This document shows positions 20,750 through 54,970 of a stretch of 64,000 nucleotides of DNA, one piece after another; the stretch's first letter is position 1; each line of letters starts with the position of its first letter. A model generated the notes under the pieces. That model saw only the letters and a list, made by a program, of their open reading frames with translations, was not told the DNA's origin and ran no database searches. Made by a program: the position numbers and the translations under genes. The stretch lies in assembly GCA_964016885.1 (NCBI GenBank), contig OZ024752.1, positions 26,412,001 to 26,476,000 on the forward strand, given 5' to 3'. Source of the DNA: Eledone cirrhosa (Eukaryota).

Positions 20750-22640
20750 TACCAATACCATCAATATCAATACTAACATCACTAAACACCACCATTAATA
20801 CCATCAAAGCCTCCACCAACATTACTAGGACTAATACCACCAACATCACCAATAACACCACCAACATCACCAATACCACCAACACCACCAATAACACCAT
20901 CAACACCACCAACACCACCAATAACACCATCAACATCACCAACATCACCAATACCACCAACACCACCAATAACACCATCAACACCACCAACACCACCAAT
21001 AACACCATCAACACCACCAACACCACCAATAACACCACCAATACCACCAACACCACCAATAACACCATCAACACCACCAACACAACCAATAACACCATCA
21101 ATACCACCAACACCACCAATAACACCATCAACACCACCAACACCACCAATAACACCAACAATACCACCAACACCACCAATAACACCATCAACACCACCAA
21201 CACCACCAATAACACCATCAACACCACCAACACCACCAATAACACCATCAACATCACCAACACCACCAATAACACCATCAATACCACCAACACCACCAAT
21301 AACACCATCAACACCACCAACACCACCAATAACACCACTAACACCACCACTAACACCACCAACACCACCACTAACACCACCAACACCACCACTAACACCA
21401 CTAACACCACCAACACCACCACTAACACCACCAACACCACCACTAACACCACTAACACCACTAACACCACTAACACCACCAACACCACCACTAACACCAC
21501 CAACACCACCACTAACACCACTAACACCACCAACACCACCACTAACACCACTAACACCACTAACACCACTAACACCACCACTAACACCACCAACACCACC
21601 ACTAACACCACCAACACCACCACTAACACCACTAACACCACCAACACCACCACTAACACCACTAACACCACCAACACCACCACTAACACCACCAACACCA
21701 CCACTAACACCACTAACACCACTAACACCACCAACACCACCACTAACACCACCAACACCACCACTAACACCACTAACACCACCAACACCACCACTAACAC
21801 CACCAACAACACCACTAACACCACCAACACCACCACTAACACCACCAACACCACCACTAACACCACCAACACCACCAACACCACCAACACCACCACTAAC
21901 ACCACCAACACTACCACTAACACCACCAACACCACCAACACCACCAACACCACCACTAACACCACCAACACCACCAACACCACCAACACCACCACTAACA
22001 CCACTAACACCACCAACACCACCACTAACACCACCAACACCACCACTAACACCACCAACACCACCAACACCACCAACACCACCACTAACACCACTAACAC
22101 CACCAACACCACCAACACCACCAACACCACCACTAACACCACCAACACCACCACTAACACCACTAACACCACCAACACCACCACTAACACCACCAACACC
22201 ACCACTAACACCACTAACACCACCAACACCACCACTAACACCACTAACACCACCAACACCACCACTAACACCACCAACACCACCACTAACACCACCAACA
22301 CCACCACTAACACCACTAACACCACCAACACCACCACTAACACCATCAACACCACCACTAACACCACCAACACCACCACTAACACCACTAACACCACCAA
22401 CACCACCACTAACACCATCAACACCACCACTAACACCACTAACACCACCAACACCACCACTAACACCACCAACACTACCACTAACATTGTCAATACCAGC
22501 ACCACCAAAACCACCGGCAACAAGACTACAGCTTTCTTCACCAACACTCCCACCACCACTATCATCACAATCACCATCACAACCACCACAACCACAACCA
22601 CAACCACCACCACCAGCAGCACCAACAGCACCACCACCAT
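20750..22640. repeat. (AAC/ACC/ACT/AAT) compound trinucleotide minisatellite, about 1.9 kb
   Basis: 9- and 12-bp units such as aacaccacc and aacaccaccact; these create the T/N and V/L ORFs. Confidence 0.95.
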
Positions 22641-22884
22641 TAAATGACTTAAATTTTGTGGCATTTTAAGCGCTTCGCCAAACATGATCTAACAAGTCAA
22701 TGAGGACATTCTAGCTCTCTCTTTCCAAACCTCTCCCCCCCTGTATCCCCCTCTCCACTCCTCCCCTTCCTCCTCCCACCCACCTCCCTCCCCGACTCAT
22801 CTATGCCCCCCCCCCTGTACCATCCATTTCCCCCAGTTGCAGTCCGTCCTAACTCCTTCTTCCCATGTCCGTATCCACCTCTGT

Positions 22885-24012
22885 CACCACCAGCAACACC
22901 ACCAGCAGAAACACTAGCAGCAGCCCTATCAACACATCTACCACCACCACTATCACCACCACCACTACCACCACCACTACCGCCACCACTATCACTACCA
23001 CCACCACACCAACATCACATCTACCACCACCACTATCACCACCACCATCACCAGTACCACCACCACTACCACCACCACTATCACCACCACCACTACCACC
23101 ACTACTACCGCCACCACTATCACTACCACCACCACACCAACATCACATCTACCACCACCACTATCACCACCACCATCACCAGTACCACCACCACTACCGC
23201 CACCACTATCACCACCACCACTACCACCACCACTACCGCCACCACTATCACTACCAGCACCACACCAACACCACATCTACCACCACCACTATCACAACCA
23301 CCACCACTACCACCACCACTACTGCCACCACTATCACTACCACCACCACACCAACACCACATCTACCACCACCACTAACACCACCACCACCACCACCACC
23401 ACCACCACCACCACCACCACCACCACCACCACCACCACTACCAACACCACCACCACTACCAACACTACCACCACTGCTATCACCACACCACCACCACCAC
23501 CATCAATACCACCACCACACCAACACCACCACCACTACCAACACCACCACCACTACCACCACCACACCACCACCACCACCACCACTACCAACACCACCAC
23601 CACTACTATCACCACACCACCACCACCACCACCACCAATACCACCACCACACCACCACCACCACCACCACCACACACCACACACCACCACCACCACCACC
23701 ACTACCACCACCACACCAACACCACCACCACTACCACAACCACACCAACATCACCACCACTACCACCACCACCACACAACCACCACCACCACACCACCAC
23801 CACTACCAACACCACCACCACACCAACACCACCACCACTACCAACACCACCACCACTACCAACACTACCACCACTGCTATCACCACCACCACCACCACCA
23901 CCATCAATACCACCACCACACCAACACCACCACCACCACCACACCAACACCACCAACACCACCACCACCACCAACACCACCACCACTACCACCACCACCA
24001 CCACACCACCAT
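22885..24012. repeat. (ACC)n degenerate repeat
   Basis: Visible directly. Confidence 0.95.
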
Positions 24013-24182
24013 CAATTTATTATCCACCTCACCGGGTCTAGCTCGACTTTACAATATTGGAGATGATAGGTGTTGGTGTGTTATGTTACAACCCGGAGAA
24101 AAGCTCCACATTGCGATAATCTGTCATAATCTGTCGAAAACCATTGGAATAAAACCTTTTGCTCCCCCCTCTCTCTCTCACC

Positions 24183-26795: not shown

Positions 26796-27640
26796 CGACG
26801 CGCTCGGTGAAACTCTAGGCGTGGAGGAAGATGAACTGGCCAGTCTGTTCGGTAGGACCTTCCGCCCGGGACCGATGGACAACTTCCAAAAGTCGCTGGC
26901 CTGGCAGTGCTACCGAGGAGCTCTACCAGTTCGAGACAAGCTCTACAGACATGGGCGCCCGGGCAGGGACCCTGCAAAAAAGATCTGTCCGAGGTGCGTG
27001 CGAGACGAAGAAACCGTCGCGCACGCATTCATACACTGCCCGGACGTCACTGACCTGTGGGGCTATGTAGAACGACTATTGTCGCGGGTGGGACCAATCC
27101 GGTTGACCACCGAGTCCATTGTCATGATCAAACCGCCACCCTCCTTCAAAAACGAAGGAGAGGCGGTTTTCCTTTGTGTGATAGCTATGGCGAAAGAGGT
27201 TGTATGGTGGACAAGGTTGAAAGGGCTGAGGTCAGACACCTTTCTCTCCGGCCAACAACTGATTCTTTTTTTCAAATACCACTTTGGAAGAAGAATCAGG
27301 ATGGAGAGAGAGGTGCTGTACCCCAGCAAGTTTTATGAAAGGTGGGTGAAAGTGGCGAGAATGGCCCGAGTGAATGGGCCTTCTCTCTATATCAGCCTGT
27401 AGGTTGAGGAAAAGGAGGAGGAGAGGAAAGGAGTACAAGCTCTTCGTACTCCTGGAGATGAGGGTTGCACATTTTTTTCGGGGGTCTGTGTTACCCATAT
27501 AAACTGTCTCCCTCTATTGGGGAAAATCGACTAACTTTTAAATTCCATCTGTGATAACATTTTACACGTTTTTATTGTATGTAAACTTCCCCCTTTGTAT
27601 TTGTCCCCTTCTTTTGTGCCCCTGTGGCTAATAAAGAAAT
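26796..27640 (+). mobile_element. 5'-truncated Tx1 (subfamily B) copy 1: ORF2 C-terminal zinc-finger region plus 3' UTR
   Basis: CPRC..ETVAHAFIHC motif; ends AATAAAgaaat then (ATCT)n. Confidence 0.92.
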
Positions 27641-30194: not shown

Positions 30195-30427
30195 ATTAAT
30201 CTAGCTGTCGTCTGTTCTACAGTGTGTATGTCATTCACTTCGCACAGAAGTTTTGTTCAAATTTATTGAGGAAATTTTGTGAGTTCAAACTTAATTTTGA
30301 TACAATTGTGTAGCTTGACCCTCCGTCTGAACTGTCAGGCGGTGGGTCAGCTCATCTTTACCCCTCCTAGAGGTGAAAAACCTGTTTTAAAAATGTTTGT
30401 GTAAAAAATTTCAATCGTCTAACAGAA

Positions 30428-32326
30428 ATGTTAAACGCAGCGAACGAAAATAGTGGTGGGGGGACAGCGGTAAGAGTTGTAAGCTCGCACGCTTTAGTCC
30501 TCCCTTCCTTCCCAACTAACGTCATAGAGAAGGAAGGAAAAATTAAAATAAAAACAGACGAATCTGCGGAGAAAAAATTAAATGACGAAAACACAAATCT
30601 GGACTTGGATTCCAACAACGAAAAAAAAAAATTTGAAAAATTGCATGACAATACTAATAACACAAACAAAGACACAACAAACACAAAAATAACAGTTGAA
30701 AATAACACCATATCAGAAAACAAAGCAGACGACAAGATTTCATTTGCACAGAAAACAAAGAAATCTTTGACTTATATAGCGGAAAACATTTCAGATGTGG
30801 TACGAAGGATCACGGACGCCAAACAATACATAAGTGAAGGAGAGAATGGTATTTTATCCGTAAAAATGCCTCAAGAATTCACGAAAGACATTGAAAGCCG
30901 AACGGTCAAGTTTCGGACCATCAACAACAGTACAAAAAAACCTGAACAGCCTTCTCAAGCAGATATCAAAACAGTACTCACAGAAGTACTTAATGAAACC
31001 ACTTTCATAAGAAAAGACAGACTGTATGGAAGCCTAGCAATTATCATGAAGAACGAATCGGCGGCAAAAAAATGTGCTTTGACACCGATTCGTTCGAAAA
31101 ATTTCACCTTTTATCCATCTTATATGGTGAAAAGAACTCAACGCATATGGTTGGATGCAATGATGCCAGATGTGGACTACTGCTGGCTCATAGCTGGCTT
31201 CATCGATCCAGTGAATGACAACGTGATTTCCATTGGGAAAACCACAGGCAATGCGTTCAGTGGAACAGGTATAGAGCTGGTAGTACAAATGAAGCCTGAA
31301 CGCATCGCCCAAATACCCGACAGAATCCTATTAGAGGACCACGGGTATATAAACATTAGCGTGGAGGGGAGAAGGCCGTCCTGCCATATCTGTGCAGGCA
31401 GAGGGCACCTGAAGGCCGCTTGTCCCCAACTCAACAAAAAGAAAACCCTGCTACCAACACCAGCTCCACCACCACCACCATAACAGATAAACAAACAACA
31501 AAACTCAGTCCCACCCAACCCGTCCCTCAGTAAAACCACACCACCACAACACAAACAGTCACAACACATTACCCCAAAACAAAATACAGGCCCACCCAAC
31601 CTCTCACTCAATAAAACAACACAACCACCGCAGACACAACACACAACACAGTCTAACATAGTGACATCCATCTCCCCCACAAAGAAAACCAACACGGAAA
31701 CATTACCAGCAAACATACCTCTTCCCTCCAACACTGAAGATAACCCAACGAATTCGGAGGAAGAAACGGAGTCCTTCAGACAGATTAAAAGGAAAAAAAG
31801 AAAACATGTGCAAAACACACAAGGACAAACAACCCCCACCCAAATCTCAACACAATCCAACAAAACAGAAAACACCCCTCCAGCAACAAACAAAACCAAA
31901 CCTGCCCCTCCCCTCTTCGAAACACTCACACCATCGGAAAAAAAGACATTACACTATACTTACATCAACAGAAACAATAATAAATTAAATGAGCTCATAT
32001 ACAATAATCCTTCGGTACAAACCGAAGGTGTAAACTTTGTTTCGTCAGAAAACTACCCACATTTAAAACTAATAAAGATCCCAATGAACCTCTACCAAAA
32101 ACTAAAAAAGGATTTTAAGGAGGACGTAGGACCACCCTCTGTCAAACCCATAAACCGCGTCCTACTAAAAAGCTTTCCCCCTCCCCTTCCCCTCCCCAAC
32201 ACAACTCCAAACACCCCAACCCCACCACACACTGACGACCCCACACCACCACAAGACACCCCTTCACCCAACACCCCCGACCCCATGGAAGTCGTGCAAC
32301 CCGAACCCCGGGAAGCGGAAAGGTAG
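30428..32326 (+). pseudogene. Tx1 ORF1 (gag-like, CCHC knuckle) with one premature stop at 31481-31483
   Basis: ORFs 30428..31483 and 31661..32326 are in the same frame. Combined length is about 632 codons versus 636 aa for the homolog at 41339. Motif CHICAGRGHLKAAC. Confidence 0.88.
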
Positions 32327-32359
32327 GTCTCTACACTCTCCTTTGGCTCTGCCGCCCAC

Positions 32360-35300
32360 ATGGATGTGTTAAGAGTAGGATGTTTGAATGCACGTGGCCT
32401 GGGCTCAACATGGAAGCAAGCAAAGCTTCTAAATGACCTCAGGTCATGTAGTATAAATGTAATGGTTATCTGTGAGACTCGAATCAGCGTCGTGCGGCAG
32501 CTGGCCCCCACCTTCGATGACTTTGAGGTGCATGCATCTCTCTGTCAACCTGGAGGTGGGGGTGGGGTTGTCGTACTGCTGCAAAAACACCTGGGTCTTG
32601 CCATACAGGTTGTGCACTCGGACCCGGAGGGTCGTTTGTTGGTGCTAGACGTTGGCAGTAGTGAAAGTGCGGCCTTGAAACTGGTCGCCGTCTACTCCCC
32701 TTTCGGAGCTGAACGGTCCGACTTCTTCCAGCGTTTAGAGACTTTTCTGGGAACGTCGCGTTCCCTGCTTCTAGCGGGGGATTGGAATGACATCCTGGAT
32801 GCACGTTGGGACTATGCAGGAGCATGTCCTAATAGAGGGGGGTGTAACAGCCTCAAGGGGTTACTCGACCGTTTTAACTTGGTCGATAGATATCGACTAG
32901 ATTTTCCAACTGTGCCTACCTGGACTTGGAGAAACCACAGTGGTCAATCTAGATCGTACTTAGATAGATTCTTAGTTAGAAGTAAGGATAGGGACATATT
33001 AAGCTGTCCAGAAATGCGCACGGTTGGCTACACGGATCACAAATTAGTGACCTGCGTGGTCAATCTCGAGAAAACACATAGACAGGGTCCCGGTTACTGG
33101 AAACTTAATTTGTCTTTACCGGCAAAAGAGACTTACAGAAACCGGATTAGCAGATTAGTTAAGGAGAGGTTGACGGGTGCAATCGTCAACAACCGATGGT
33201 GGGAATCTCTCAAAAGAGAGATTAGAACAGAATCAATAAGTTATAGCAAGATGTTAGCTGCCGATAGGAATAGAAACGAGAAAGAATTAACAGGTAAATT
33301 AGAAGAGGCAATCAAGAGCGAATATGTGGCCAGAGTGCTGGCATCGAGGACGGCCTTGAACCAGTTTTTCGATGCAAAGCACGAAGGCTGCGTCATTCGA
33401 AGTAAAATACGTGCTCTAGGTAATGAGGGGGCCAAAGCCGTTGGATGGGCCCGCGTGACAGAAGCTAAGAGTGGAAATCGATCCACCATCCGGTCGTTGC
33501 AAGACGAAGATGGACGGGTGATCCGGGAGCCTAAGCAGATGTGCGAGGCCTTTCAAAGGCACTTTGCCCGATTGTTCGGGGGAGGCGAGGGTCCGGGCGG
33601 GGGCGTGGATTTCGGTCCATACCTCGACGGCCTGCCGCGTCTCTCGAGCGAAGAGGCAGAGTCCTGCGAGGGACCAATCTCGGCTGATGAGATCGGAGAT
33701 GCGCTGAGCCAATGCAGCAGACGCAAATCTCCAGGTCTCGATGGTATACCTTATGAACTTTATTTAGCAATGCCGATCTTCTTCTCCGAACTCCTCGAAG
33801 CGGTCTACTGCAATTGGCAGCAGAACGGGGCAATTCCTTGTTCTGTAGCCAAGGGCGTAGTCACGCTGGTGAGGAAGGACGAGAACAAGGGGGATAGTAT
33901 AAATAATTTTCGGCCCATAACCCTGCTAAACACAGAGTTAAAGATTTTGGCCAAGGTGTTAGCAAAGAGGTTGGCGCTTGTCGTGGGTGGCCTGGTGGGA
34001 GATGCGCAGACATGTGCTATCCCATCCAGGTCCATTCACGATAACCTCCACCTCATGCGATACATCATAGAGAGGGTTGGCAACGTACCCGGCTTTGGTG
34101 GGGCCCTGATCAACTTGGATCAGTCTAAGGCCTTCGATAGGGTCGACCATGGTTACCTGGATGCGGTGCTAGCGGCGGCTGGGTTCGGTCCTGTTTTCAG
34201 AGGCTGGATCACTGCCCTACATAGCAACCACATCTGTTCTAGGATCAAGGTGAACGGCTACCTTTCGAAGCCGTTCGAAATCACACGATCCATTCGACAG
34301 GGGTGCCCTCTCTCCTCCCTTCTGTACGTATTGACTCTCGAGCCTTTACTGAGGAAGTTGGAGTTGTTGCAGGGTATCCCCCTGGAACCAGGATTGAGCA
34401 AAGCGGTGTCGGCCTACACCGATGACGTAACAGTAATGGTATCAACCGACTCGGAGATCGAGGCGATCGGTACCTTACTGGAGGAGTACGAAAGGTTGTC
34501 AGGAGCGAAACTGAACCGGGAAAAATCCATCGGGCTGCAACTCGGAACGTGGAGAGGCAGACCGATGCCTCCTGACGGTGTCGTCGGACACTGGACGGAG
34601 GGCCCGGTAAAGTTGCTTGGGGTCTGGTTTGGACCGGACCTCCAGGTGGAAAAGAACTGGAACGAGGTTACGAACAAGGTGTTTGCACTAACCCAGAAAT
34701 GGGCCAAGTGTAAGCTGTCCCTAAAAGGCCGGGCGGAGGTGGCGAACATTTACATAGCGTCCGTCACTTACTACCGCCTGACTGTCGTGCCTTGCCCTAA
34801 GGAAACACTCACCACCATGGAACGCATGCTCTTCCAATTTCTTTGGAAGAAGCGTCCTCCTATGGTGAGAAGATCCATCTGCTGCCAACAACCTTCGAAA
34901 GGAGGGCTGGGGATGCCGTGGTTGATGATGCGTAGGCACGCATTAAGGCTACGGCACCTACAGGTATTCCTCACTGGTCAACCGGTGTGGGCTCCGTTCG
35001 TGGAACGAGCCTTTCCGAGACTCGTCTCGCTCACCGAGCTACAGTCCTGGGTCAAGCAAAGATCCGGAAAACTGGGAGACTGGCACACTGAGTGTGCTCA
35101 GGCGCTCAGGGCTCTCTGGCAAGCGGGCCAGGCCATCGGTGGAGAATCCACCTCATCATTCTATAGAGGGCTGGTGGCTAGCAGGGGCGATGACATCCTT
35201 GGAGAGTCGCTGGACATGGAAGAAGACGAACTGGCCAGCCTGTTCGGTAGGACTTTCGGCCCAGGACCAATGGACAACTTCCAGAAGTCACTGGCCTGGC

Positions 35301-35797
35301 AGTGCTACCGGGGGGCTCTACCCGTTCGAGAGAGGCTCTACAGACACGAGCGCCCGGGCAGGGATCCCTCAAAAAAGATTTGCCCTAGATGCGTGCGTCA
35401 CGAAGAAACCGTTGCGCACGCATTGGTGCAATGTCCGGGCGTGGCTGATCTGTGGGGCTACGCCGAACAACTGCAGTCGCGGGTGGCGCCGATTAAATTG
35501 ACCGCCGAGTCCGTGATGACAATCAAACCGCCTCCCCTCTTCACAAAGGAAGCAAAGGCGGTTTTTCTGTGCGTAATAGCCATGTTGAAAGAGGTTGTTT
35601 GGTGGACACGATTGAAAGGTCTGAGGTCAGGCAACTTCCTCTCTGGCCATAGTCTGGTCTACTTCTTCCGATATCACTTCGGAAGAAGGATAAGAATGGA
35701 GAGAGAGGTGCTTGGCCACAGGCAGTTTTATGAAAGGTGGGTGATAGTGGCGAGAATGGCTCGTGTAAATGGGCCTTATCTGTATACCATCCTGTAG
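32360..35797 (+). CDS. Tx1 ORF2: APE endonuclease, reverse transcriptase and C-terminal zinc finger (1145 aa)
   Basis: LNARGL, ICET, GDWN, YLDRF, TDH; SPGLDG, QGCPLS, YTDD; CPRC..ETVAHALVQC. Confidence 0.95.
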   Translation: MDVLRVGCLNARGLGSTWKQAKLLNDLRSCSINVMVICETRISVVRQLAPTFDDFEVHASLCQPGGGGGVVVLLQKHLGLAIQVVHSDPEGRLLVLDVGSSESAALKLVAVYSPFGAERSDFFQRLETFLGTSRSLLLAGDWNDILDARWDYAGACPNRGGCNSLKGLLDRFNLVDRYRLDFPTVPTWTWRNHSGQSRSYLDRFLVRSKDRDILSCPEMRTVGYTDHKLVTCVVNLEKTHRQGPGYWKLNLSLPAKETYRNRISRLVKERLTGAIVNNRWWESLKREIRTESISYSKMLAADRNRNEKELTGKLEEAIKSEYVARVLASRTALNQFFDAKHEGCVIRSKIRALGNEGAKAVGWARVTEAKSGNRSTIRSLQDEDGRVIREPKQMCEAFQRHFARLFGGGEGPGGGVDFGPYLDGLPRLSSEEAESCEGPISADEIGDALSQCSRRKSPGLDGIPYELYLAMPIFFSELLEAVYCNWQQNGAIPCSVAKGVVTLVRKDENKGDSINNFRPITLLNTELKILAKVLAKRLALVVGGLVGDAQTCAIPSRSIHDNLHLMRYIIERVGNVPGFGGALINLDQSKAFDRVDHGYLDAVLAAAGFGPVFRGWITALHSNHICSRIKVNGYLSKPFEITRSIRQGCPLSSLLYVLTLEPLLRKLELLQGIPLEPGLSKAVSAYTDDVTVMVSTDSEIEAIGTLLEEYERLSGAKLNREKSIGLQLGTWRGRPMPPDGVVGHWTEGPVKLLGVWFGPDLQVEKNWNEVTNKVFALTQKWAKCKLSLKGRAEVANIYIASVTYYRLTVVPCPKETLTTMERMLFQFLWKKRPPMVRRSICCQQPSKGGLGMPWLMMRRHALRLRHLQVFLTGQPVWAPFVERAFPRLVSLTELQSWVKQRSGKLGDWHTECAQALRALWQAGQAIGGESTSSFYRGLVASRGDDILGESLDMEEDELASLFGRTFGPGPMDNFQKSLAWQCYRGALPVRERLYRHERPGRDPSKKICPRCVRHEETVAHALVQCPGVADLWGYAEQLQSRVAPIKLTAESVMTIKPPPLFTKEAKAVFLCVIAMLKEVVWWTRLKGLRSGNFLSGHSLVYFFRYHFGRRIRMEREVLGHRQFYERWVIVARMARVNGPYLYTIL

Positions 35798-36152
35798 GTA
35801 AAGAAGTAAAGGAGAGGGGAGCACCTTCTCCATGTGCTCCCCGGGCAAAGGATTGCACACTTTTTCGGGGGTGTGTGCAACCCCCATCACGTCCCCTCCC
35901 TTTTGAGGTTATTTTCGATTATTTTCATGTTACACCCTTTTTACTCGATTATATGTAAACTCCCCCTTTGTATTTGTCCCTTCTTTTTATGCCTTTATGG
36001 TAAATAAAGAAATCTATCTATCTATCTATCTATTTGTCCACCCGTTCGACCTTCTGTCTGTCCGCCTCTGTTTCGCTCTCTTCCGCCCCCCCCTCTCTCT
36101 CTCTATATATATATATATATACATAAATATATATATATAAATATATAAATAT

Positions 36153-40600: not shown

Positions 40601-41338
40601 ATTGATTATTAAAAAACTGCTGTTAATGTCGCCATTGAAGCCATTCTTAGCTACGGCTGTTGTTGTTGTTGTTGTTCCTGTTATAGCTGATAAGCTTGTT
40701 TTGTTGATATTACCAACCTATTTGTGTATCATACCATTATTGCTCGTTTATTATTGCTGAATTTGTTGTAGTTGTTGTCATTGTTGTTGCTAATCTTGTG
40801 CTTATGTGTATTGATGTTTGTGTCGTTGTTGTTGTTGTTGTTGATGGTGTTGGTGGTGGTGATGGTGGTGGTGGTTGTGCTGGTGGTGATGGTGGTAGTG
40901 GTCCTGTTGGTTTTGTTTTGCCATTGCTGTTATTGTTGTTTTTGTTGCCATCGTCGTTGTCGTTATTGTTGTCGTTGTTGTTGTTTATTGTTGCAGTTGT
41001 TGATATTGCTGTATCGTTATCGTTTTAGTAATTTTGTTTGTGTTTTTACTTGCTGTTACCATTATTGCTGTTGTTTATATAGTCATTATTAATATTAATA
41101 ATGTTATTATTATTATTATTATTATTATTGACGAAAGTGGATGTACGTTTTTTGAAGCTCCGTGAGTAAGCAATTTTTGAGGATTAATTGTAGAGAATTG
41201 TTTATTTTTTGTACCGCTGAAGCATTATAAGACATTAATTTGTATCCTGTGAAGGAATAACTCATAATATTTGGGCCTTTTGGCCCAAATATTTGAACTT
41301 TATTTTGAAAAAAATAATAATTTTTTTCTCAAAAAAAC

Positions 41339-43249
41339 ATGGCGGAGCCACGCCCCCTAGAGGCGGGTCTGCTGTCGTGCAACGGCGACTTGAGCGTTGA
41401 GAGGAGAGGTGAGGCGAGGAGCGCCACCAGCACGAATGTGAGCAGCGACAGTGCCAGCACCAACGGGCCGAGCGGCGCGGAAGGTGGTAACAGCGACAAC
41501 ACCAACACCAACAAGCCGAACAGCGCAGAAGGTGGTAATAGCGAGAGCACCAACAAAACGAACAGCACAGAGAGTAATAGTAGCGACAGCAGCAGCACCA
41601 ACAAGGCCAACAGCACAGAAGGTAACCACGACACAGGGGAGAACAACAACAGCAATAGCAGCAGCAACACCAACAAGAACAACAACAGTGACAACACCAA
41701 CAAGAACACTTTCGCTGCTGTGGCAGCGGCTAAAAGGAGACCATGCTACAGCATCGACTTAACCAACAGAGAGGAAAAGTTGGCCCAGGCCTGGAAAATC
41801 ATAAATCAAGAGCAGACCTGGGCAAACTTAACTGTCCCGGCAGAAGCCATTGAGGCAGTGGAAAAAAGAACGGTGCATTTCAGATGCATCTCAGTAGAGA
41901 CAAAGAGGGCAGCGATAATCGCCCAAGCTGACATAGAAGCCGCACTGAAATACATCAGAGAGGACACAGACTTCATAGAGAGGGGCAGGCAATACGGCAC
42001 CGTTTCGGTGCTGTTCAAGTCTGAAGCCCTCGCTGTGAAGCATTCAATGACCCCTTGCAAAACCAGCAAGGTCATAATGTACCCCTCCCACATGGGAAAA
42101 CGAATAGCACGTGTGCGCATTCCCAGGATTCCACCAGGACTTGATATGTGGTGGCTCCTGGGTTGCGTAATCGTGGAAGGAACGGATACAGTCCCGGTAG
42201 AGGCAACGAGAACTGCCAGGGACGACTGGTCCGGGGTTGATCTGGAGATACTGCTCCAAATCAGACCCGAAAACGTAAAAACAATCCCGGACCACATCCG
42301 CCTCCAAAACGGGAGGGTGTTGCATATAATGACTGAGGGCAAAAGGCCGCATTGTTTCCTTTGTGGGGAAACGACACACTTGCGAGCCTTCTGCCCTCAA
42401 CTGCCGAAAAGCGCAAGGGGTCGAAAGATTCCACTGCTGGCGACGCCGGGACAAGGACCACCAGCAACACCGTCAACAATGGAACCACCAAAATTGCACA
42501 CCCAGGGGGGAAACGAGGAAAGCTCTCCCATTCCCCCTCCCCCCCAAAATACACACACGAACAAGAACATAAACACTCACTCAGACACAAACACGCTCAC
42601 AGCCACAGACCCCTCATCCTCCAGCAGTGAAGATGAGGGAAAACCAAAGTCCCCCAAAATACAAAAAACAAAACACAAAAAAAAAAGAAATCCACAAAGC
42701 ACAAACACCCCCACAAAAAAAAATACACACACCACCCACACAAACATTTTCCCCACAGCATCACCAACACAACCACCAAAATCCCCCAAACGCAAACAAG
42801 CTAAACAGACACAAGAACAAATAGACACACAAACATCAGAAACTACAGACACCCCACCCACAACAAACGCAGACACAATAGAAACAACACTAACAAAGCT
42901 ATCACCACCACAATCACACGAACAAATAAAACCCGAGCAACAAAACATTAAAAACTTCGTGCTTGCCAGAAGGGCCAACAAGGAATTGATGGCCCATGTA
43001 GCACGAAGCACAAACATCGAAAAAGACGGGGAAACATTTGAAGCGAGCACATTTCGCGTACCAGATAATTTGCTTCTGATGCGAATGTCGCTCGCTTCAT
43101 ACAAAGAAATTCGAAAGAGCTTTCCTCGGGATGTGGGAACCCCGAACGTAAAACCCACGTCAAGACTATTAAAGGGGTTCCCAAAAGAAACCCCACAAAC
43201 CATGGAGGTCGAACCACCCGACCTTCACAAGACCCCGGAAGGTAAGTAA
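41339..43249 (+). CDS. Tx1 ORF1 (636 aa; low-complexity N-terminus, CCHC zinc knuckle)
   Basis: TFAAVAA motif and CFLCGETTHLRAFC; homologous to lineage C ORF1. Confidence 0.93.
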   Translation: MAEPRPLEAGLLSCNGDLSVERRGEARSATSTNVSSDSASTNGPSGAEGGNSDNTNTNKPNSAEGGNSESTNKTNSTESNSSDSSSTNKANSTEGNHDTGENNNSNSSSNTNKNNNSDNTNKNTFAAVAAAKRRPCYSIDLTNREEKLAQAWKIINQEQTWANLTVPAEAIEAVEKRTVHFRCISVETKRAAIIAQADIEAALKYIREDTDFIERGRQYGTVSVLFKSEALAVKHSMTPCKTSKVIMYPSHMGKRIARVRIPRIPPGLDMWWLLGCVIVEGTDTVPVEATRTARDDWSGVDLEILLQIRPENVKTIPDHIRLQNGRVLHIMTEGKRPHCFLCGETTHLRAFCPQLPKSARGRKIPLLATPGQGPPATPSTMEPPKLHTQGGNEESSPIPPPPQNTHTNKNINTHSDTNTLTATDPSSSSSEDEGKPKSPKIQKTKHKKKRNPQSTNTPTKKNTHTTHTNIFPTASPTQPPKSPKRKQAKQTQEQIDTQTSETTDTPPTTNADTIETTLTKLSPPQSHEQIKPEQQNIKNFVLARRANKELMAHVARSTNIEKDGETFEASTFRVPDNLLLMRMSLASYKEIRKSFPRDVGTPNVKPTSRLLKGFPKETPQTMEVEPPDLHKTPEGK

Positions 43250-43278
43250 ACCTTTCCTCTCCCATTCATCCTGCCAGC

Positions 43279-46200
43279 ATGGCCATAAGAGTAGGAAGTT
43301 TAAATGTTCGTGGCCTGGGGTCGCCCTGGAAGCAAGGTCACTTGCTCAACGACCTCAGGTCACTAGGAATGGATGTAATTGCCATCAGCGAGACCAGAAT
43401 TTCCGACACACGCGCACTGGCGCCGATTTTCGACGATTATCAGATCTTTGCATCTGTTAGTCGGCCGGGAATGGGAGGTGGAGTGGCTGTGCTGTTTAGG
43501 AAATGTCTGGATCTCGAGGTAAGGTCAATCTTCCGGGATCCTGACGGAAAGTTGGTGGTCCTGGACGTGAGCAATAGCGAAGGTGGTGCCTTTAGACTGG
43601 TGGCCGTCTACGCCCCTACTGGGGCCGGTCGGCCGGACTTCTTTAGGCGCCTGGAAAACTTTCTGCTTACGTCTCGCCCTTTACTGTTAATAGGGGATTG
43701 GAATGGCATCTTAGAAGCACGCTGGGATTGTGTGGGAGTATCTGATAGGAGCGGGGGGTGCAAAAGCCTCAAGTACCTGATCAGCCAGTTTCAACTGTCT
43801 GACAGGTACCGACTAGATTTCCCTAATGCGCCAGTATGGACCTGGACCAATCGCATAGGGTCATCTAGATCGTACATAGATAGGATTTTCATTAGGAAAA
43901 GAGATAGAAATAGTGTAGGATGTCCACATTTTAAAACGGTTGCCTATTCAGATCACAAGCTTGTGATCTGTATGGTCGACCTAGATAAGACACGTAGGTT
44001 AGGACCTAGCTACTGGAAGCTAAACATGTCGTTTCCGGCACGTAAAGCTTACAGGGACCGGGTCAACAACTTAGTTAAGCAAAAGTTGACAGGGGGGGTT
44101 GTCAACAACAGGTGGTGGGGGGCACTCAAAAGAGAGATTAGAGCAACCTCGATAGGATTTAGCAAAGAAGTAGCAATAGAGAAAAATAGAAAAGAGGAGG
44201 GGCTGATAGCTAAGTTAGACGAGGCTATTTGTAGTGGCATTGCAACAGACGTGCTAGCGGCGAGAATGGCACTAGACCATTTCTTCAATGCGAAACACGA
44301 AGGTTGCATTGTCAGAGCTAAGGCGCGTGCTCTGAGGAACGAGGGAACCAAAGCTGCCCGATGGGCTCGCTTTGCAGAGACGCAGCGTGGAAATAAAACC
44401 ACAATTCGGTCTTTGACGGATCGAGATGGACACGAACTGAGCGATTCCAAGCAGATGTGTGAGGCCTTTCGCCAGCACTTTGCTCGATTGTTCGGGAGGA
44501 TGGGTGAGTCGGAGATGGCGGCGGACTTCAGTCCCTACCTCGACGGCTTGCCACGCCTCTCGACGGCCGACGCTGAGCGCTGCGAAGAGCCGATAACATC
44601 AGCCGAAATTCAGGACGCCCTTGTCGGCTGCTCGAGTCGCAAGTCACCCGGTTTGGATGGTCTGCCCTACGAGCTTTACGTAAATATGCCAGACTTGTTC
44701 TCCGATCTCCTCGAAGCGCTCTACTGCAACTGGCAGCAGAACGGGAGCATTCCCAGTTCTGTGAGCCGTGGCGTAGTGACGCTGATAAGGAAAGACGAGA
44801 ACAAGAGGGACACACTAGATAATTTCAGGCCCATAACCCTGCTCAACACAGAGTTTAAGATTTTGGCCAAGGTGTTAGCGAAAAGGTTGGCGCTTGTCGT
44901 CAAAGATTTGGTTGGGGAGGCGCAAACTTGCGCAATCCCGACCAGGTCCATACACGACAACCTCCACCTCATGCGATACATCATAGAGAGGGTTGGGTGC
45001 AAACCTGGCTTCGGTGGGGCTCTGATCAATTTAGATCAATCGAAAGCATTCGATAGGGTCGACCATCGGTACTTGGAGGCTGTCCTCGAGGCGGCTGGCT
45101 TCGGCCCCGTCTTCAGAAGCTGGATCGCTGCAATGTACAGCGGCATCCGCTCGGTGGTCAAAGTTAATGGCCACCTCTCGGAACCGTTTCAGATCTCTCG
45201 ATCGGTCCGTCAAGGGTGCCCTCTCTCCTCACTTCTGTACGTATTGACTCTTGAGCCTCTACTGCGGAAGCTGGAGTTGTTGCAGGGCATCCCGCTCGAA
45301 CCGGGACGTAGAAAGGCTGCGTCCGCTTATGCAGACGACATCACCGTGATGGTGTCGGACACCTCGGAAATCGAGGTGATCCGCACCCATTTGGAGGAAT
45401 ATGAAAGGTTGACGGGAGCAAAACTTAACCCGGAAAAGTCGGTGGGCTTGCAGCTCGGCACCTGGAGAGGCAAGTCCATGCCGTCCAACAGCGTCGTTGG
45501 GCGCTGGACAGACGGACCGGTAAAGTTGCTCGGGGTTTGGTTCGGACCAGACCTCCAGGTGGATAAGAATTGGGACGAGGTGACGAGCAGGATAGCCAAC
45601 CTCACCCAGAAATGGGCTGAGAGAAAGCTATCACTGAAAGGGCGGGCGGAGGTGGCGAACGCGTACATCGCGTCCGTCATCTACTACCGCCTGACCGTCG
45701 TGCCTTGCCCCCGTCCACGCCTCGCCAATTTGGAACGGCTCCTTTTCAAATTTTTGTGGAGGGGACGGGTCCCGTTGGTGAGGCGGTCCATCTGCTGCCA
45801 GCACCCTCTTCGTGGAGGGCTGGGCATGCCGTGGCTAATGATGCGCAGACATGCGCTGAGGCTGCGACATCTCCAGATATTTTGCCTAAACGGTGAACAG
45901 GTGTGGTCGCCGTTTGTTAGACGGGCCTTTCCGCAGCTCATCTCTTTGACTGAGCTGCAGTCCTGGGTCAAGAAGAGACCGAGACTGGGCGACTGGCATC
46001 TGGAATGTTGCCAGGCGCTCACTGCACTCTGCAAGGTGGGCAATGCGGTCAGTGGAACTTCCACTCAAGATTTCTATAGAGGATTAGTGGAGGGCAAGTG
46101 CGATGACGTACTAGGAGAGGCTCTGGGCGTCAACGAAGTAGAACTGACCAGTATGTTCCGGAGGACTTTCGAGCCGGGGACGATGGATAACTTCCAGAAA

Positions 46201-46698
46201 TCCCTCGCTTGGCAGTGCTACCGAGGGGCGCTGCCGGTTCGGGATAAACTCTACAGGCACGGAAGTGCTGTCAGACGAACCTGCCCGAGATGCGCGCAGA
46301 GCGACGAAACCGTTCTGCACGCACTCGTCCAGTGTCCGTGCATTGCTGACTTGTGGGGTTATGTCGAACAGCTATTGTCGCGTGTAGAACGGATCCGGCT
46401 ATCGTCCGAGTCCATAGTGAAGATTGACCCGCCGCCTTCTTTTGGTCAGGAAGGGCAGGCAATTTTCCTCTGCCTGGTGGCAGTAGCGAAAGAGGTTGCA
46501 TGGTGGACCAGGTTGAAAGGACTGAAGACAGACACTTTTCTCTTCGGCCAATCCCTCATCAACTTCTTCAAGTTTCACTTGGAAAGGAAGGTGAGGGTGG
46601 AGAGAGAAGTGCTGCCCCCCAGTACATTTACTGAAAGGTGGGTGAATGTGGCGAGAATGGCCCGCGTGAGTGGGCCTACTCTGATCATGCGCCTGTAG
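43279..46698 (+). CDS. Tx1 ORF2 (1139 aa; APE endonuclease, RT with YADD, zinc finger)
   Basis: LNVRGL, ISET, GDWN, YIDR, SDH; QGCPLS, YADD; CPRC..ETVLHALVQC. Confidence 0.97.
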   Translation: MAIRVGSLNVRGLGSPWKQGHLLNDLRSLGMDVIAISETRISDTRALAPIFDDYQIFASVSRPGMGGGVAVLFRKCLDLEVRSIFRDPDGKLVVLDVSNSEGGAFRLVAVYAPTGAGRPDFFRRLENFLLTSRPLLLIGDWNGILEARWDCVGVSDRSGGCKSLKYLISQFQLSDRYRLDFPNAPVWTWTNRIGSSRSYIDRIFIRKRDRNSVGCPHFKTVAYSDHKLVICMVDLDKTRRLGPSYWKLNMSFPARKAYRDRVNNLVKQKLTGGVVNNRWWGALKREIRATSIGFSKEVAIEKNRKEEGLIAKLDEAICSGIATDVLAARMALDHFFNAKHEGCIVRAKARALRNEGTKAARWARFAETQRGNKTTIRSLTDRDGHELSDSKQMCEAFRQHFARLFGRMGESEMAADFSPYLDGLPRLSTADAERCEEPITSAEIQDALVGCSSRKSPGLDGLPYELYVNMPDLFSDLLEALYCNWQQNGSIPSSVSRGVVTLIRKDENKRDTLDNFRPITLLNTEFKILAKVLAKRLALVVKDLVGEAQTCAIPTRSIHDNLHLMRYIIERVGCKPGFGGALINLDQSKAFDRVDHRYLEAVLEAAGFGPVFRSWIAAMYSGIRSVVKVNGHLSEPFQISRSVRQGCPLSSLLYVLTLEPLLRKLELLQGIPLEPGRRKAASAYADDITVMVSDTSEIEVIRTHLEEYERLTGAKLNPEKSVGLQLGTWRGKSMPSNSVVGRWTDGPVKLLGVWFGPDLQVDKNWDEVTSRIANLTQKWAERKLSLKGRAEVANAYIASVIYYRLTVVPCPRPRLANLERLLFKFLWRGRVPLVRRSICCQHPLRGGLGMPWLMMRRHALRLRHLQIFCLNGEQVWSPFVRRAFPQLISLTELQSWVKKRPRLGDWHLECCQALTALCKVGNAVSGTSTQDFYRGLVEGKCDDVLGEALGVNEVELTSMFRRTFEPGTMDNFQKSLAWQCYRGALPVRDKLYRHGSAVRRTCPRCAQSDETVLHALVQCPCIADLWGYVEQLLSRVERIRLSSESIVKIDPPPSFGQEGQAIFLCLVAVAKEVAWWTRLKGLKTDTFLFGQSLINFFKFHLERKVRVEREVLPPSTFTERWVNVARMARVSGPTLIMRL

Positions 46699-47185
46699 GC
46701 TGGTGAATTCGAGAAGGAGAGGGGTGCCCTTCCCGGGTGCCCTAGGAGCGTCGGGTGGCTCAGGACTGGTGGGGTGCTTGAGTCAACCCTGGGTGGTGAT
46801 CCCTCTTATTGGGGAACTTTCATTGTTGTATTTTTATTGTTATTTTGTTTTTCTTGTTATTTATACTTACTCGATCTCTATGTAAACCCCCACTGTCCCT
46901 GTCTATTGTGTTGTCCCCTATATGTCGGCCCTTGTGGCCAATAAATGAAATCATTATTATTATTATTATTATTATTGACGAAAGTGGATGTACGTTTTTT
47001 GAAGCTCCGTGAGTAAGCAATTTTTGAGGATTAATTGTAGAGAATTGTTTATTTTTTGTACCGCTGAAGCATTATAAGACATTAATTTGTATCCTGTGAA
47101 GGAATAACTCATAATATTTGGGCCTTTTGGCCCAAATATTTGAACTTTATTTTGAAAAAAATAATAATTTTTTTCTCAAAAAAAC

Positions 47186-49096
47186 ATGGCGGAGCCACGC
47201 CCCCTAGAGGCGGGTCTGCTGTCGTGCAACGGCGACTTGAGCGTTGAGAGGAGAGGTGAGGCGAGGAGCGCCACCAGCACGAATGTGAGCAGCGACAGTG
47301 CCAGCACCAACGGGCCGAGCGGCGCGGAAGGTGGTAACAGCGACAACACCAACACCAACAAGCCGAACAGCGCAGAAGGTGGTAATAGCGAGAGCACCAA
47401 CAAAACGAACAGCACAGAGAGTAATAGTAGCGACAGCAGCAGCACCAACAAGGCCAACAGCACAGAAGGTAACCACGACACAGGGGAGAACAACAACAGC
47501 AATAGCAGCAGCAACACCAACAAGAACAACAACAGTGACAACACCAACAAGAACACTTTCGCTGCTGTGGCAGCGGCTAAAAGGAGACCATGCTACAGCA
47601 TCGACTTAACCAACAGAGAGGAAAAGTTGGCCCAGGCCTGGAAAATCATAAATCAAGAGCAGACCTGGGCAAACTTAACTGTCCCGGCAGAAGCCATTGA
47701 GGCAGTGGAAAAAAGAACGGTGCATTTCAGATGCATCTCAGTAGAGACAAAGAGGGCAGCGATAATCGCCCAAGCTGACATAGAAGCCGCACTGAAATAC
47801 ATCAGAGAGGACACAGACTTCATAGAGAGGGGCAGGCAATACGGCACCGTTTCGGTGCTGTTCAAGTCTGAAGCCCTCGCTGTGAAGCATTCAATGACCC
47901 CTTGCAAAACCAGCAAGGTCATAATGTACCCCTCCCACATGGGAAAACGAATAGCACGTGTGCGCATTCCCAGGATTCCACCAGGACTTGATATGTGGTG
48001 GCTCCTGGGTTGCGTAATCGTGGAAGGAACGGATACAGTCCCGGTAGAGGCAACGAGAACTGCCAGGGACGACTGGTCCGGGGTTGATCTGGAGATACTG
48101 CTCCAAATCAGACCCGAAAACGTAAAAACAATCCCGGACCACATCCGCCTCCAAAACGGGAGGGTGTTGCATATAATGACTGAGGGCAAAAGGCCGCATT
48201 GTTTCCTTTGTGGGGAAACGACACACTTGCGAGCCTTCTGCCCTCAACTGCCGAAAAGCGCAAGGGGTCGAAAGATTCCACTGCTGGCGACGCCGGGACA
48301 AGGACCACCAGCAACACCGTCAACAATGGAACCACCAAAATTGCACACCCAGGGGGGAAACGAGGAAAGCTCTCCCATTCCCCCTCCCCCCCAAAATACA
48401 CACACGAACAAGAACATAAACACTCACTCAGACACAAACACGCTCACAGCCACAGACCCCTCATCCTCCAGCAGTGAAGATGAGGGAAAACCAAAGTCCC
48501 CCAAAATACAAAAAACAAAACACAAAAAAAAAAGAAATCCACAAAGCACAAACACCCCCACAAAAAAAAATACACACACCACCCACACAAACATTTTCCC
48601 CACAGCATCACCAACACAACCACCAAAATCCCCCAAACGCAAACAAGCTAAACAGACACAAGAACAAATAGACACACAAACATCAGAAACTACAGACACC
48701 CCACCCACAACAAACGCAGACACAATAGAAACAACACTAACAAAGCTATCACCACCACAATCACACGAACAAATAAAACCCGAGCAACAAAACATTAAAA
48801 ACTTCGTGCTTGCCAGAAGGGCCAACAAGGAATTGATGGCCCATGTAGCACGAAGCACAAACATCGAAAAAGACGGGGAAACATTTGAAGCGAGCACATT
48901 TCGCGTACCAGATAATTTGCTTCTGATGCGAATGTCGCTCGCTTCATACAAAGAAATTCGAAAGAGCTTTCCTCGGGATGTGGGAACCCCGAACGTAAAA
49001 CCCACGTCAAGACTATTAAAGGGGTTCCCAAAAGAAACCCCACAAACCATGGAGGTCGAACCACCCGACCTTCACAAGACCCCGGAAGGTAAGTAA
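47186..49096 (+). CDS. Tx1 ORF1 (copy 2)
   Basis: Same protein as 41339..43249. Confidence 0.93.
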   Translation: MAEPRPLEAGLLSCNGDLSVERRGEARSATSTNVSSDSASTNGPSGAEGGNSDNTNTNKPNSAEGGNSESTNKTNSTESNSSDSSSTNKANSTEGNHDTGENNNSNSSSNTNKNNNSDNTNKNTFAAVAAAKRRPCYSIDLTNREEKLAQAWKIINQEQTWANLTVPAEAIEAVEKRTVHFRCISVETKRAAIIAQADIEAALKYIREDTDFIERGRQYGTVSVLFKSEALAVKHSMTPCKTSKVIMYPSHMGKRIARVRIPRIPPGLDMWWLLGCVIVEGTDTVPVEATRTARDDWSGVDLEILLQIRPENVKTIPDHIRLQNGRVLHIMTEGKRPHCFLCGETTHLRAFCPQLPKSARGRKIPLLATPGQGPPATPSTMEPPKLHTQGGNEESSPIPPPPQNTHTNKNINTHSDTNTLTATDPSSSSSEDEGKPKSPKIQKTKHKKKRNPQSTNTPTKKNTHTTHTNIFPTASPTQPPKSPKRKQAKQTQEQIDTQTSETTDTPPTTNADTIETTLTKLSPPQSHEQIKPEQQNIKNFVLARRANKELMAHVARSTNIEKDGETFEASTFRVPDNLLLMRMSLASYKEIRKSFPRDVGTPNVKPTSRLLKGFPKETPQTMEVEPPDLHKTPEGK

Positions 49097-49125
49097 ACCT
49101 TTCCTCTCCCATTCATCCTGCCAGC

Positions 49126-52100: not shown

Positions 52101-52545
52101 CAGGCACGGAAGTGCTGTCAGACGAACCTGCCCGAGATGCGCGCAGAGCGACGAAACCGTTCTGCACGCACTCGTCCAGTGTCCGTGCATTGCTGACTTG
52201 TGGGGTTATGTCGAACAGCTATTGTCGCGTGTAGAACGGATCCGGCTATCGTCCGAGTCCATAGTGAAGATTGACCCGCCGCCTTCTTTTGGTCAGGAAG
52301 GGCAGGCAATTTTCCTCTGCCTGGTGGCAGTAGCGAAAGAGGTTGCATGGTGGACCAGGTTGAAAGGACTGAAGACAGACACTTTTCTCTTCGGCCAATC
52401 CCTCATCAACTTCTTCAAGTTTCACTTGGAAAGGAAGGTGAGGGTGGAGAGAGAAGTGCTGCCCCCCAGTACATTTACTGAAAGGTGGGTGAATGTGGCG
52501 AGAATGGCCCGCGTGAGTGGGCCTACTCTGATCATGCGCCTGTAG
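49126..52545 (+). CDS. Tx1 ORF2 (copy 2)
   Basis: Private substitutions STVDAE and TFQPG. Confidence 0.97.
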   Translation: MAIRVGSLNVRGLGSPWKQGHLLNDLRSLGMDVIAISETRISDTRALAPIFDDYQIFASVSRPGMGGGVAVLFRKCLDLEVRSIFRDPDGKLVVLDVSNSEGGAFRLVAVYAPTGAGRPDFFRRLENFLLTSRPLLLIGDWNGILEARWDCVGVSDRSGGCKSLKYLISQFQLSDRYRLDFPNAPVWTWTNRIGSSRSYIDRIFIRKRDRNSVGCPHFKTVAYSDHKLVICMVDLDKTRRLGPSYWKLNMSFPARKAYRDRVNNLVKQKLTGGVVNNRWWGALKREIRATSIGFSKEVAIEKNRKEEGLIAKLDEAICSGIATDVLAARMALDHFFNAKHEGCIVRAKARALRNEGTKAARWARFAETQRGNKTTIRSLTDRDGHELSDSKQMCEAFRQHFARLFGRMGESEMAADFSPYLDGLPRLSTVDAERCEEPITSAEIQDALVGCSSRKSPGLDGLPYELYVNMPDLFSDLLEALYCNWQQNGSIPSSVSRGVVTLIRKDENKRDTLDNFRPITLLNTEFKILAKVLAKRLALVVKDLVGEAQTCAIPTRSIHDNLHLMRYIIERVGCKPGFGGALINLDQSKAFDRVDHRYLEAVLEAAGFGPVFRSWIAAMYSGIRSVVKVNGHLSEPFQISRSVRQGCPLSSLLYVLTLEPLLRKLELLQGIPLEPGRRKAASAYADDITVMVSDTSEIEVIRTHLEEYERLTGAKLNPEKSVGLQLGTWRGKSMPSNSVVGRWTDGPVKLLGVWFGPDLQVDKNWDEVTSRIANLTQKWAERKLSLKGRAEVANAYIASVIYYRLTVVPCPRPRLANLERLLFKFLWRGRVPLVRRSICCQHPLRGGLGMPWLMMRRHALRLRHLQIFCLNGEQVWSPFVRRAFPQLISLTELQSWVKKRPRLGDWHLECCQALTALCKVGNAVSGTSTQDFYRGLVEGKCDDVLGEALGVNEVELTSMFRRTFQPGTMDNFQKSLAWQCYRGALPVRDKLYRHGSAVRRTCPRCAQSDETVLHALVQCPCIADLWGYVEQLLSRVERIRLSSESIVKIDPPPSFGQEGQAIFLCLVAVAKEVAWWTRLKGLKTDTFLFGQSLINFFKFHLERKVRVEREVLPPSTFTERWVNVARMARVSGPTLIMRL

Positions 52546-53030
52546 GCTGGTGAATTCGAGAAGGAGAGGGGTGCCCTTCCCGGGTGCCCTAGGAGCGTCG
52601 GGTGGCTCAGGACTGGTGGGGTGCTTGAGTCAACCCTGGGTGGTGATCCCTCTTATTGGGGAACTTTCATTGTTGTATTTTTATTGTTATTTTGTTTTTT
52701 GTTATTTATACTTACTCGATCTCTATGTAAACCCCCACTGTCCCTGTCTATTGTGTTGTCCCCTATATGTCGGCCCTTGTGGCCAATAAATGAAATCATT
52801 ATTATTATTATTATTATTATTGACGAAAGTGGATGTACGTTTTTTGAAGCTCCGTGAGTAAGCAATTTTTGAGGATTAATTGTAGAGAATTGTTTATTTT
52901 TTGTACCGCTGAAGCATTATAAGACATTAATTTGTATCCTGTGAAGGAATAACTCATAATATTTGGGCCTTTTGGCCCAAATATTTGAACTTTATTTTGA
53001 AAAAAATAATAATTTTTTTCTCAAAAAAAC

Positions 53031-54941: not shown

Positions 54942-54970
54942 ACCTTTCCTCTCCCATTCATCCTGCCAGC

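What the first reader, a model, noticed from the sequence alone, without database searches (positions are those of the whole stretch)
32323..35797. The same donor/acceptor arrangement is conserved in the divergent (TATC)n-targeting lineage C
Seen: ORF1 ends gcg gaa AG|GTAGGT (stop TAG inside the donor) and ORF2 ends ccttatctgtataccatcctgTAG|Gtaa. Splicing gives gcg gaa agg taa = AER*, exactly the unspliced ORF1 C-terminus, although the intron phase (2) differs from lineage D (1) and the surrounding sequence is poorly alignable. Subfamily B copies also end ccttctctctatatcagcctgTAG|G/A, with a stronger pyrimidine tract and a TGA two bases later. A phase-matched stop right after the acceptor in both full-length lineages is hard to attribute to chance and supports selection on the spliced product (inference).
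Basis: partly seen in the sequence, partly recalled or inferred. Interest (0 to 1): 0.85.

Follow-up and report, generated by a model that had tools for sequence, protein, structure and literature searches.

The report
LINE retrotransposon with ORF2 as intron
Eight diverged families of a jumping gene in this animal genome all keep a strong splice-donor sequence at the end of their first gene, and seven keep an acceptor-like AG in the stop codon of their second gene, so the element likely splices out its whole enzyme gene to make a short message for its packaging protein alone, though no spliced RNA has been seen.

Summary
In detail: lineage C has AG|GTAGGT at the ORF1 stop and CTGTAG|G TAA at the ORF2 stop, and joining them gives an unchanged ORF1 end. 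I collected eight families of this L1/Tx1-type clade from the same genome (ORF2 67-85% identical). All keep the donor, in three different reading phases. It ranks first or tied first among about 300 GT sites in 11 of 13 representative copies; 0 of 35 distant relatives have one upstream of ORF2. The acceptor is weaker evidence. TAG is kept in 7 of 8 families, but family J uses TAA and has a new strong CAG acceptor in its 3' UTR. The phase-matched stop holds in five families (B, C, D, E, K) and fails in two (F, G). Spliced genomic copies: 0, against 904 unspliced. No RNA run was on record. Best reading: copia-like alternative splicing to an ORF1-only mRNA (about 55%); main rival: U1 binding without this splice. 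I found no report of this for a LINE, and the scan had not noted it on other DNA.

The parts
30195..36013 (+). Full-length lineage C L1/Tx1-type LINE, flanked by (TATC)n on both sides
   Evidence: at least 904 copies carry this ORF1/ORF2 junction
30428..32326 (+). ORF1 with a CCHC knuckle; this copy has a premature stop at 31481-31483
   Evidence: the matching region of D's ORF1 resembles CCHC-domain clusters
32320..32328 (+). Predicted 5' splice site AAG|GTAGGT (cut 32322|32323, phase 2), overlapping the ORF1 stop
   Evidence: (rank 1 of 313 GT sites)
32329..32359 (+). Pyrimidine-rich inter-ORF spacer; has no AG in C, F, G, J and K
32360..35797 (+). ORF2: APE endonuclease, reverse transcriptase, zf-RVT; the predicted intron is 32323-35797
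35774..35801 (+). Predicted 3' splice site formed by the ORF2 stop (CTGTAG|G), then TAA at 35799-35801
   Evidence: rank 1 of 258 AG sites, ad hoc score
35798..36013 (+). 3' UTR and predicted terminal exon (216 nt), with AATAAA at 36003
43239..43249 (+). Lineage D donor AAG|GTAAGT (cut 43241|43242, phase 1); repeated at 49088 and 54933
46675..46706 (+). Lineage D acceptor CTGTAG|GC TGG TGA at the ORF2 stop 46698; repeated at 52545 and 58390
27379..27407 (+). Family B ORF2 end (CTGTAG|GT TGA) of a 5'-truncated copy; further B ends at 28307, 29176, 29892

Best explanation
This clade of two-ORF LINE retrotransposons keeps a U1-type 5' splice-site sequence at the end of ORF1, which is likely spliced in part of the transcripts to an acceptor at the ORF2 stop codon (in family J, to one in the 3' UTR), so that ORF2 would be removed as a 3.5-kb intron. 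Shown: the sites, their conservation, their rank and the reading frames. Inferred: the unspliced 5.8-kb RNA would serve as bicistronic mRNA and as template for retrotransposition. The spliced RNA of about 2.3 kb would make ORF1 protein only, with its stop close to the last exon junction and a short 3' UTR. This would raise the ORF1p:ORF2p ratio and probably avoid nonsense-mediated decay. Lacking ORF2, the short RNA would rarely be copied back into the genome.
For: Donor in all 8 families (C, E, G, B, F, D, K, J): 210 of 220 detected ORF2 starts have GGTRRGT within 70 nt upstream (overlapping loci counted twice). It sits in phase 0 (E, inside coding sequence and apart from the stop, 40 of 40 hits identical), phase 1 (B, D, K) and phase 2 (C, F, G, J), so neither a codon nor the stop explains it. 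Conservation peaks at -3..+6 (6-8 of 8 families; mostly 3-5 elsewhere), and variation at +3 and +4 is A/G only, as in the splice consensus. It ranks first or tied first among about 300 GT sites in 11 of 13 representatives. Outgroup: 0 of 35 distant relatives score 9 or more upstream of ORF2, and their ORF2 stops are TAG in only 6 of 22. The stop AG ranks 1-2 of about 250 downstream AGs in 7 of 10 TAG-ending representatives. J, which lost TAG (11 of 12 TAA) and kept the donor (11 of 12), has a top-ranked T-rich CAG about 160 nt downstream in 40 of 44 rows; sister family K, which keeps TAG, has CAC there. A stop falls within 3 codons of the junction in C, D, D3, B, K and E.
Against: No spliced genomic copy for C, B or D (0 hits each with one mismatch allowed) against 904 unspliced C junctions; this is expected if ORF2p acts in cis, but gives no support. 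The phase-matched stop fails in F (+27 residues in 5 of 5 paired copies, and in L122) and in G (+27 or more in 2 copies). TAG retention is within the neutral range (12 of 45 columns). The acceptor is weak in the D/K branch (ranks 4, 11 and 19). One old K-like copy has TAA and no 3'-UTR AG but keeps the donor (L196/L162). A donor-like AAG|GTGGGT in the E-R-W-V codons of ORF2 is kept in 7 of 8 families, apparently through coding constraint. The splice scores use recalled generic frequencies and an ad hoc acceptor score. All families come from one genome and share ancestry.
Confidence: 0.55

Rival explanations
1. The donor is a functional U1 snRNP binding site that works mostly without this splice. 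It would suppress premature cleavage and polyadenylation or aid the stability or export of the full-length RNA, or splice to variable downstream acceptors. The AG at the ORF2 stop is incidental.
For: The donor is more conserved than any acceptor (8 of 8 against 7 of 8 families), and the phase match fails in F and G. There are no spliced retrocopies. U1 suppresses premature termination in the copia element EVD (PMC5580714, passages read).
Against: The stop AG is the top-ranked acceptor in most TATC-flanked families. J's new CAG appears where TAG is lost. B and K match in phase. This rival and the best explanation can both be true, as in EVD.
Confidence: 0.25
2. The motif belongs to a translation signal (ORF1 termination and ORF2 re-initiation) made of the stop context plus the pyrimidine spacer, and resembles a donor only because the donor consensus contains TAA, TAG or TGA.
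For: In seven families the ORF1 stop lies in or just after the motif, 28-49 nt before the ORF2 start, and a pyrimidine tract follows in all of them. Family E lacks an ORF2 AUG, so unusual initiation exists in this clade.
Against: The motif is unchanged while the stop moves through three phases, and in E the stop is 12 codons further on. The variation follows the splice consensus.
Confidence: 0.12
3. Neutral inheritance: both motifs were present in the clade's ancestor and have not yet decayed.
For: The families share ancestry; 17% of fourfold sites (29 of 171) are invariant across nine copies; TAG retention is unremarkable.
Against: Six donor positions (-1, +1, +2, +5, +6 invariant; -2 in 7 of 8) are kept across families whose flanks have diverged to background and whose ORF1 C-termini (C, J, K) do not align.
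Confidence: 0.08

Closest known systems
Drosophila copia gag-only subgenomic RNA (Yoshioka et al. 1990, as described in PMC5580714; passage read, original not read)
   Same: An intron of about 3 kb covering the whole enzyme region is removed to give an RNA for the structural protein only.
   Different: copia is an LTR element with a single gag-pol ORF, and its splicing is shown. Here the element is a LINE whose ORF1 already has its own stop, the acceptor is the ORF2 stop codon, and splicing is predicted.
Arabidopsis Ty1/Copia EVD shGAG RNA (PMC5580714; passages read)
   Same: Conserved splice sites across families set the ratio of structural protein to enzyme; U1 has a dual role; a short 3' UTR is argued to evade RNA quality control.
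   Different: A short intron coupled to premature termination in an LTR element; here one long intron and the normal poly(A) site.
Human L1 splice products SpORF2 (PMC2896524, passages) and SpIREs (PMC5860796, abstract)
   Same: An L1-group LINE with internal splice donors and acceptors.
   Different: These remove 5' UTR or ORF1 sequence and keep ORF2; SpIREs are described as dead ends. Here ORF2 is the part removed and the sites are conserved across families.
ORF1-only LINE derivatives: Drosophila telomeric ORF1-only elements (PMC13534243, passages) and HAL1 (listed in PMC5753468; its structure recalled)
   Same: An ORF1-only coding unit with the element's 3' end.
   Different: They are genomic elements that lost ORF2 ('splic' occurs 0 times in PMC13534243). 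Here no ORF1-only genomic copy with the precise junction was found.
Sequence-specific Tx1-clade non-LTR retrotransposons (PMC4640811, passages)
   Same: APE endonuclease, RT, two ORFs, insertion into microsatellites.
   Different: No splice arrangement was found described for them in my searches; 35 distant relatives lack the donor.

Membership tests
L1 group / Tx1 clade LINE | ORF2 with APE endonuclease, RT and C-terminal zinc-binding region | tested here: met
   PF03372, PF00078 and PF13966 (the last just under its cut-off in C, over it in D); best PDB match human L1 ORF2p, E 4e-50, against R2 at 8e-20
L1 group / Tx1 clade LINE | Upstream ORF1 with a CCHC knuckle and RNA-binding domain | tested here: met
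   CX2CX4HX4C; Atlas feature hits to zf-CCHC clusters at 0.92-0.93, ZCCHC3-like at 0.89 as a lead only; no Pfam hit
L1 group / Tx1 clade LINE | Target-sequence specificity | tested here: met
   (TATC)n precedes most true 5' junctions of C copies; (ATT)n precedes D and J; small sample
L1 group / Tx1 clade LINE | RT phylogeny inside Tx1 rather than L1 proper | not tested
copia-type spliced subgenomic RNA strategy | Conserved donor at the end of the structural ORF | tested here: met
copia-type spliced subgenomic RNA strategy | Conserved acceptor that removes the whole enzyme region | tested here: inconclusive
   TAG in 7 of 8 families, relocated candidate in J, weak in D and K, retention within the neutral range
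copia-type spliced subgenomic RNA strategy | Spliced RNA detected and translated | not testable with these tools
   No RNA holder listed
copia-type spliced subgenomic RNA strategy | LTR element with a single gag-pol ORF (membership in Ty1/Copia) | tested here: not met
   Two-ORF non-LTR structure; it may work like copia but is not a member
SpIRE / ORF1-only retrocopies | Genomic copies with the precise splice junction | tested here: not met
   0 hits for C, B and D; positive control 904; E, F, G, J and K not searched

The most novel reading that the evidence does not exclude
A LINE clade has independently evolved the copia strategy: its entire ORF2 is an alternatively retained intron whose 3' splice site is the ORF2 stop codon itself, the sites have been kept through frame shifts and one acceptor relocation, and splicing choice sets the balance between ORF1p mRNA and transposition template.
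Probability: 0.5. Interest if true: 0.78.

Novelty: new variant of a known kind. Interest (0 to 1): 0.62.

Why it matters
LINEs need far more ORF1p than ORF2p and are thought to get this from inefficient ORF2 translation on one bicistronic RNA (PMC3894237, first third read). Known L1 splicing is described as inhibitory or as producing dead ends. A conserved splice that removes ORF2 would be a second, selected way for a LINE to set this ratio, convergent with copia. It would also be a single switch by which element or host could turn off thousands of young copies. It is directly testable with one junction-spanning primer pair per family.

Tried and rejected
RNA: no RNA holder listed (six runs, kind not on record). 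Contigs of four runs laid on C: none of the 15 joints shown, of 89, was donor-to-acceptor; one X1 contig bridged the acceptor unspliced (35528-36010). X1 alone on D: all 4 joints listed, none donor-to-acceptor; contigs bridged both donor (43198-43773) and acceptor (46635-46940) unspliced. X1 contig depth was higher over the 3' half of ORF1 than over the start of ORF2 (about 190 against 21 in D; 75-90 against 32 in C), but the run's kind is unrecorded and contig depth cannot rank parts of a gene, so I count none of this for or against. An acceptor in the inter-ORF spacer (an ORF2-only mRNA) was rejected as a general model: an AG is present only in B, D and E. 'YAG is always the ORF2 stop' was rejected (J). 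AG depletion in 3' UTRs (9 observed, 23 expected) was not used, because mononucleotide shuffles are a weak control. Searches with no result: metagenome scan with the single protein, viral contigs, NCBIfam (only a weak RT hit), and a 38-44%-identical sister lineage in this genome (one search returned D-type copies only). No full-length copy of families A or H was obtained, so their donors are untested. Literature: nine searches, mostly seen as listings, found no ORF2-removing splice in a LINE. The library lacks most subscription journals and Repbase Reports, and I read no supplements, so 'not in print' is not established.

Full report
What is there. Window 30195-36013 is a full-length two-ORF non-LTR retrotransposon between (TATC)n runs. 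ORF2 has APE endonuclease, RT and zf-RVT domains, and its closest solved relative is human L1 ORF2p. The C donor AG|GTAGGT overlaps the ORF1 stop, the ORF2 stop reads CTGTAG|G TAA, and removal of 3475 nt leaves ORF1 ending EAER* as before. D gives PEGW* for PEGK*. Lineage C is young and abundant: 904 matches to its unspliced junction.

Widening the comparison. Two lineages cannot separate selection from inheritance, so I fetched further families from the same genome. Eight had both junctions: C, E, G, B and F (TATC-flanked) and D, K and J (ATT-flanked, one clade in the ORF2 tree). Pairwise ORF2 DNA identity is 67-85% between these families, and fourfold-site identity is 50-76%. A and H were seen only as 3' ends.

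The donor. All eight families carry G|GTRRGT 28-49 nt before the ORF2 start: 210 of 220 detected starts, overlapping loci counted twice. In the older families it is 25 of 30 (F), 28 of 29 (K) and 11 of 12 (J). It lies in phase 0 in E, where ORF1 runs through it and stops 12 codons later; in phase 1 in B, D and K; and in phase 2 in C, F, G and J. Agreement among families is 6-8 of 8 at positions -3 to +6 and mostly 3-5 of 8 in the flanks; +3 and +4 vary only between A and G. With a recalled generic donor matrix, the site ranks first or tied first among about 300 GT sites in 11 of 13 representative copies; the two exceptions are single decayed copies. As an outgroup, 35 of 80 distant relatives from metagenome contigs (about 22-32% identity) had a locatable ORF2 start. 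None had a site scoring 9 or more upstream of it; two scored 8.2-8.7 and one scored 9.5 just inside ORF2. The feature is therefore specific to this clade. One caution: a donor-like 9-mer in the E-R-W-V codons is kept in 7 of 8 families, apparently by coding constraint, but that site stays in one frame.

The acceptor. ORF2 ends in TAG in seven families. On an ad hoc pyrimidine-tract score this AG ranks 1-2 of about 250 in 7 of 10 representatives, but 4, 11 and 19 in D, D3 and K. Keeping TAG is not in itself surprising: 12 of 45 twofold purine columns keep G in at least 8 of 9 copies. However, J has a T-rich tract ending CAG about 160 nt into the 3' UTR (40 of 44 rows, overlaps counted twice), the top-ranked acceptor in that family, where sister family K has CAC. 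A few J-like copies have both sites (L133, L207, L162/L195), and one old K-like copy has neither (L196/L162). I read this as one probable acceptor relocation; it is a single event.

The phase-matched stop. From B's 3' end I expected a phase 1 donor, and full-length B copies have one (TKGE* or AKGE* unspliced, ending G* spliced). K matches (QGK* to QV* in all 5 paired copies that keep TAG, of 10 fetched), as does D3; E stops after three codons. F gains 27 residues in all 5 paired copies of 10 fetched, and G gains 27 or more in both copies. Overall 6 of 8 true phases against 4 of 16 wrong phases stop within three codons (p = 0.03, inflated by relatedness). The argument is suggestive but not general.

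Direct evidence. Junction probes for C, B and D found 0 genomic matches. An RNA without ORF2 would be mobilised only in trans (cis preference, established for L1; recalled), so this is weak evidence. No RNA run was on record; what the contigs showed is given under Tried and rejected. Splicing is therefore inferred, not shown.

Mechanism. Most likely (0.55), part of the transcripts is spliced from the ORF1-end donor to the ORF2-stop acceptor, giving a 2.3-kb ORF1-only mRNA (exons of about 2127 and 216 nt in C), while unspliced RNA makes ORF2p and serves as template. The purpose (ORF1p excess, escape from nonsense-mediated decay) is inference by analogy. The main rival (0.25) is U1 binding that protects the full-length RNA without this splice; in EVD both roles coexist (PMC5580714, passages). 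A translation-coupling signal (0.12) and neutral inheritance (0.08) fit the phase changes poorly.

Comparison with what is known. It would work like Drosophila copia, whose gag-only RNA arises by splicing out the whole pol region (as described in PMC5580714), but it is not a copia element. Described L1 splicing removes 5' UTR or ORF1 and keeps ORF2 (PMC2896524, passages; PMC5860796, abstract); TART introns are in antisense RNA (PMC1636488, abstract). A recent octopus repeat annotation lists L1-Tx1 families and does not contain 'splic' or 'intron' in its main text (PMC13282606, term search). Nine literature searches found no ORF2-as-intron LINE, within the limits of the library. The scan's own notes held nothing on this element. 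Membership in the L1 group is met; Tx1 proper was not tested by phylogeny.

Verdict. A real, clade-specific, conserved 5' splice-site signal; a probable but less secure partner acceptor; no RNA proof. New variant of a known kind, interest 0.62.

Noticed in passing
L120 (G000:C2:38748479-38748799, minus strand) and L273-L302: Young family E (40 of 40 hits identical over 321 nt) has no AUG at the usual ORF2 start: it reads ATA there, overlapping the ORF1 stop (ATAG), yet ORF2 is open for 1166 codons. This suggests non-AUG initiation or re-initiation.
   Followed up: partly
window 41140-58640; G000:C1:423365263-423418069: Lineage D forms head-to-tail tandem arrays with a period of about 5.84 kb: three copies here, ten consecutive hits on C1.
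   Followed up: no
all families: Target repeat follows the ORF2 tree: D, K and J (one clade) end in (ATT)n, the others in (TATC)n, so specificity switched once.
   Followed up: partly
window 42071-43227: In run X1 (kind not on record) two contigs covering only this part of D's ORF1 have about ten times the depth of their neighbours, with breaks near an AAG|GT at 42070 and 14 nt before the donor; unexplained.
   Followed up: no
window 31481-31483: This C copy has a premature stop in ORF1 that most other copies lack.
   Followed up: yes
L031 (G000:C4:153166142): A C copy with a small deletion that removes the donor and the ORF1 stop, leaving a longer open frame of 1298 aa running into ORF2.
   Followed up: no
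L319: A K-type ORF1/ORF2 junction lies 2.8 kb upstream of a J-type 3' end: a nested insertion or a recombinant.
   Followed up: no
L351 (RCNA010001159.1): One distant outgroup element has GGG|GTGAGT at its ORF1 stop (rank 2 of 331) but a TAA ORF2 stop; possibly chance.
   Followed up: no
window 35800-36013 and the other families' 3' UTRs: The 3' UTRs share a purine-rich start, hairpin-like repeats, a CTATTGGGG-like motif and a U-rich tract before AATAAA; possibly the ORF2p recognition signal.
   Followed up: no
window 20830-24015: A 3.2-kb ACC-rich tandem array (period 21 or 30) just upstream of the nested LINE cluster.
   Followed up: no
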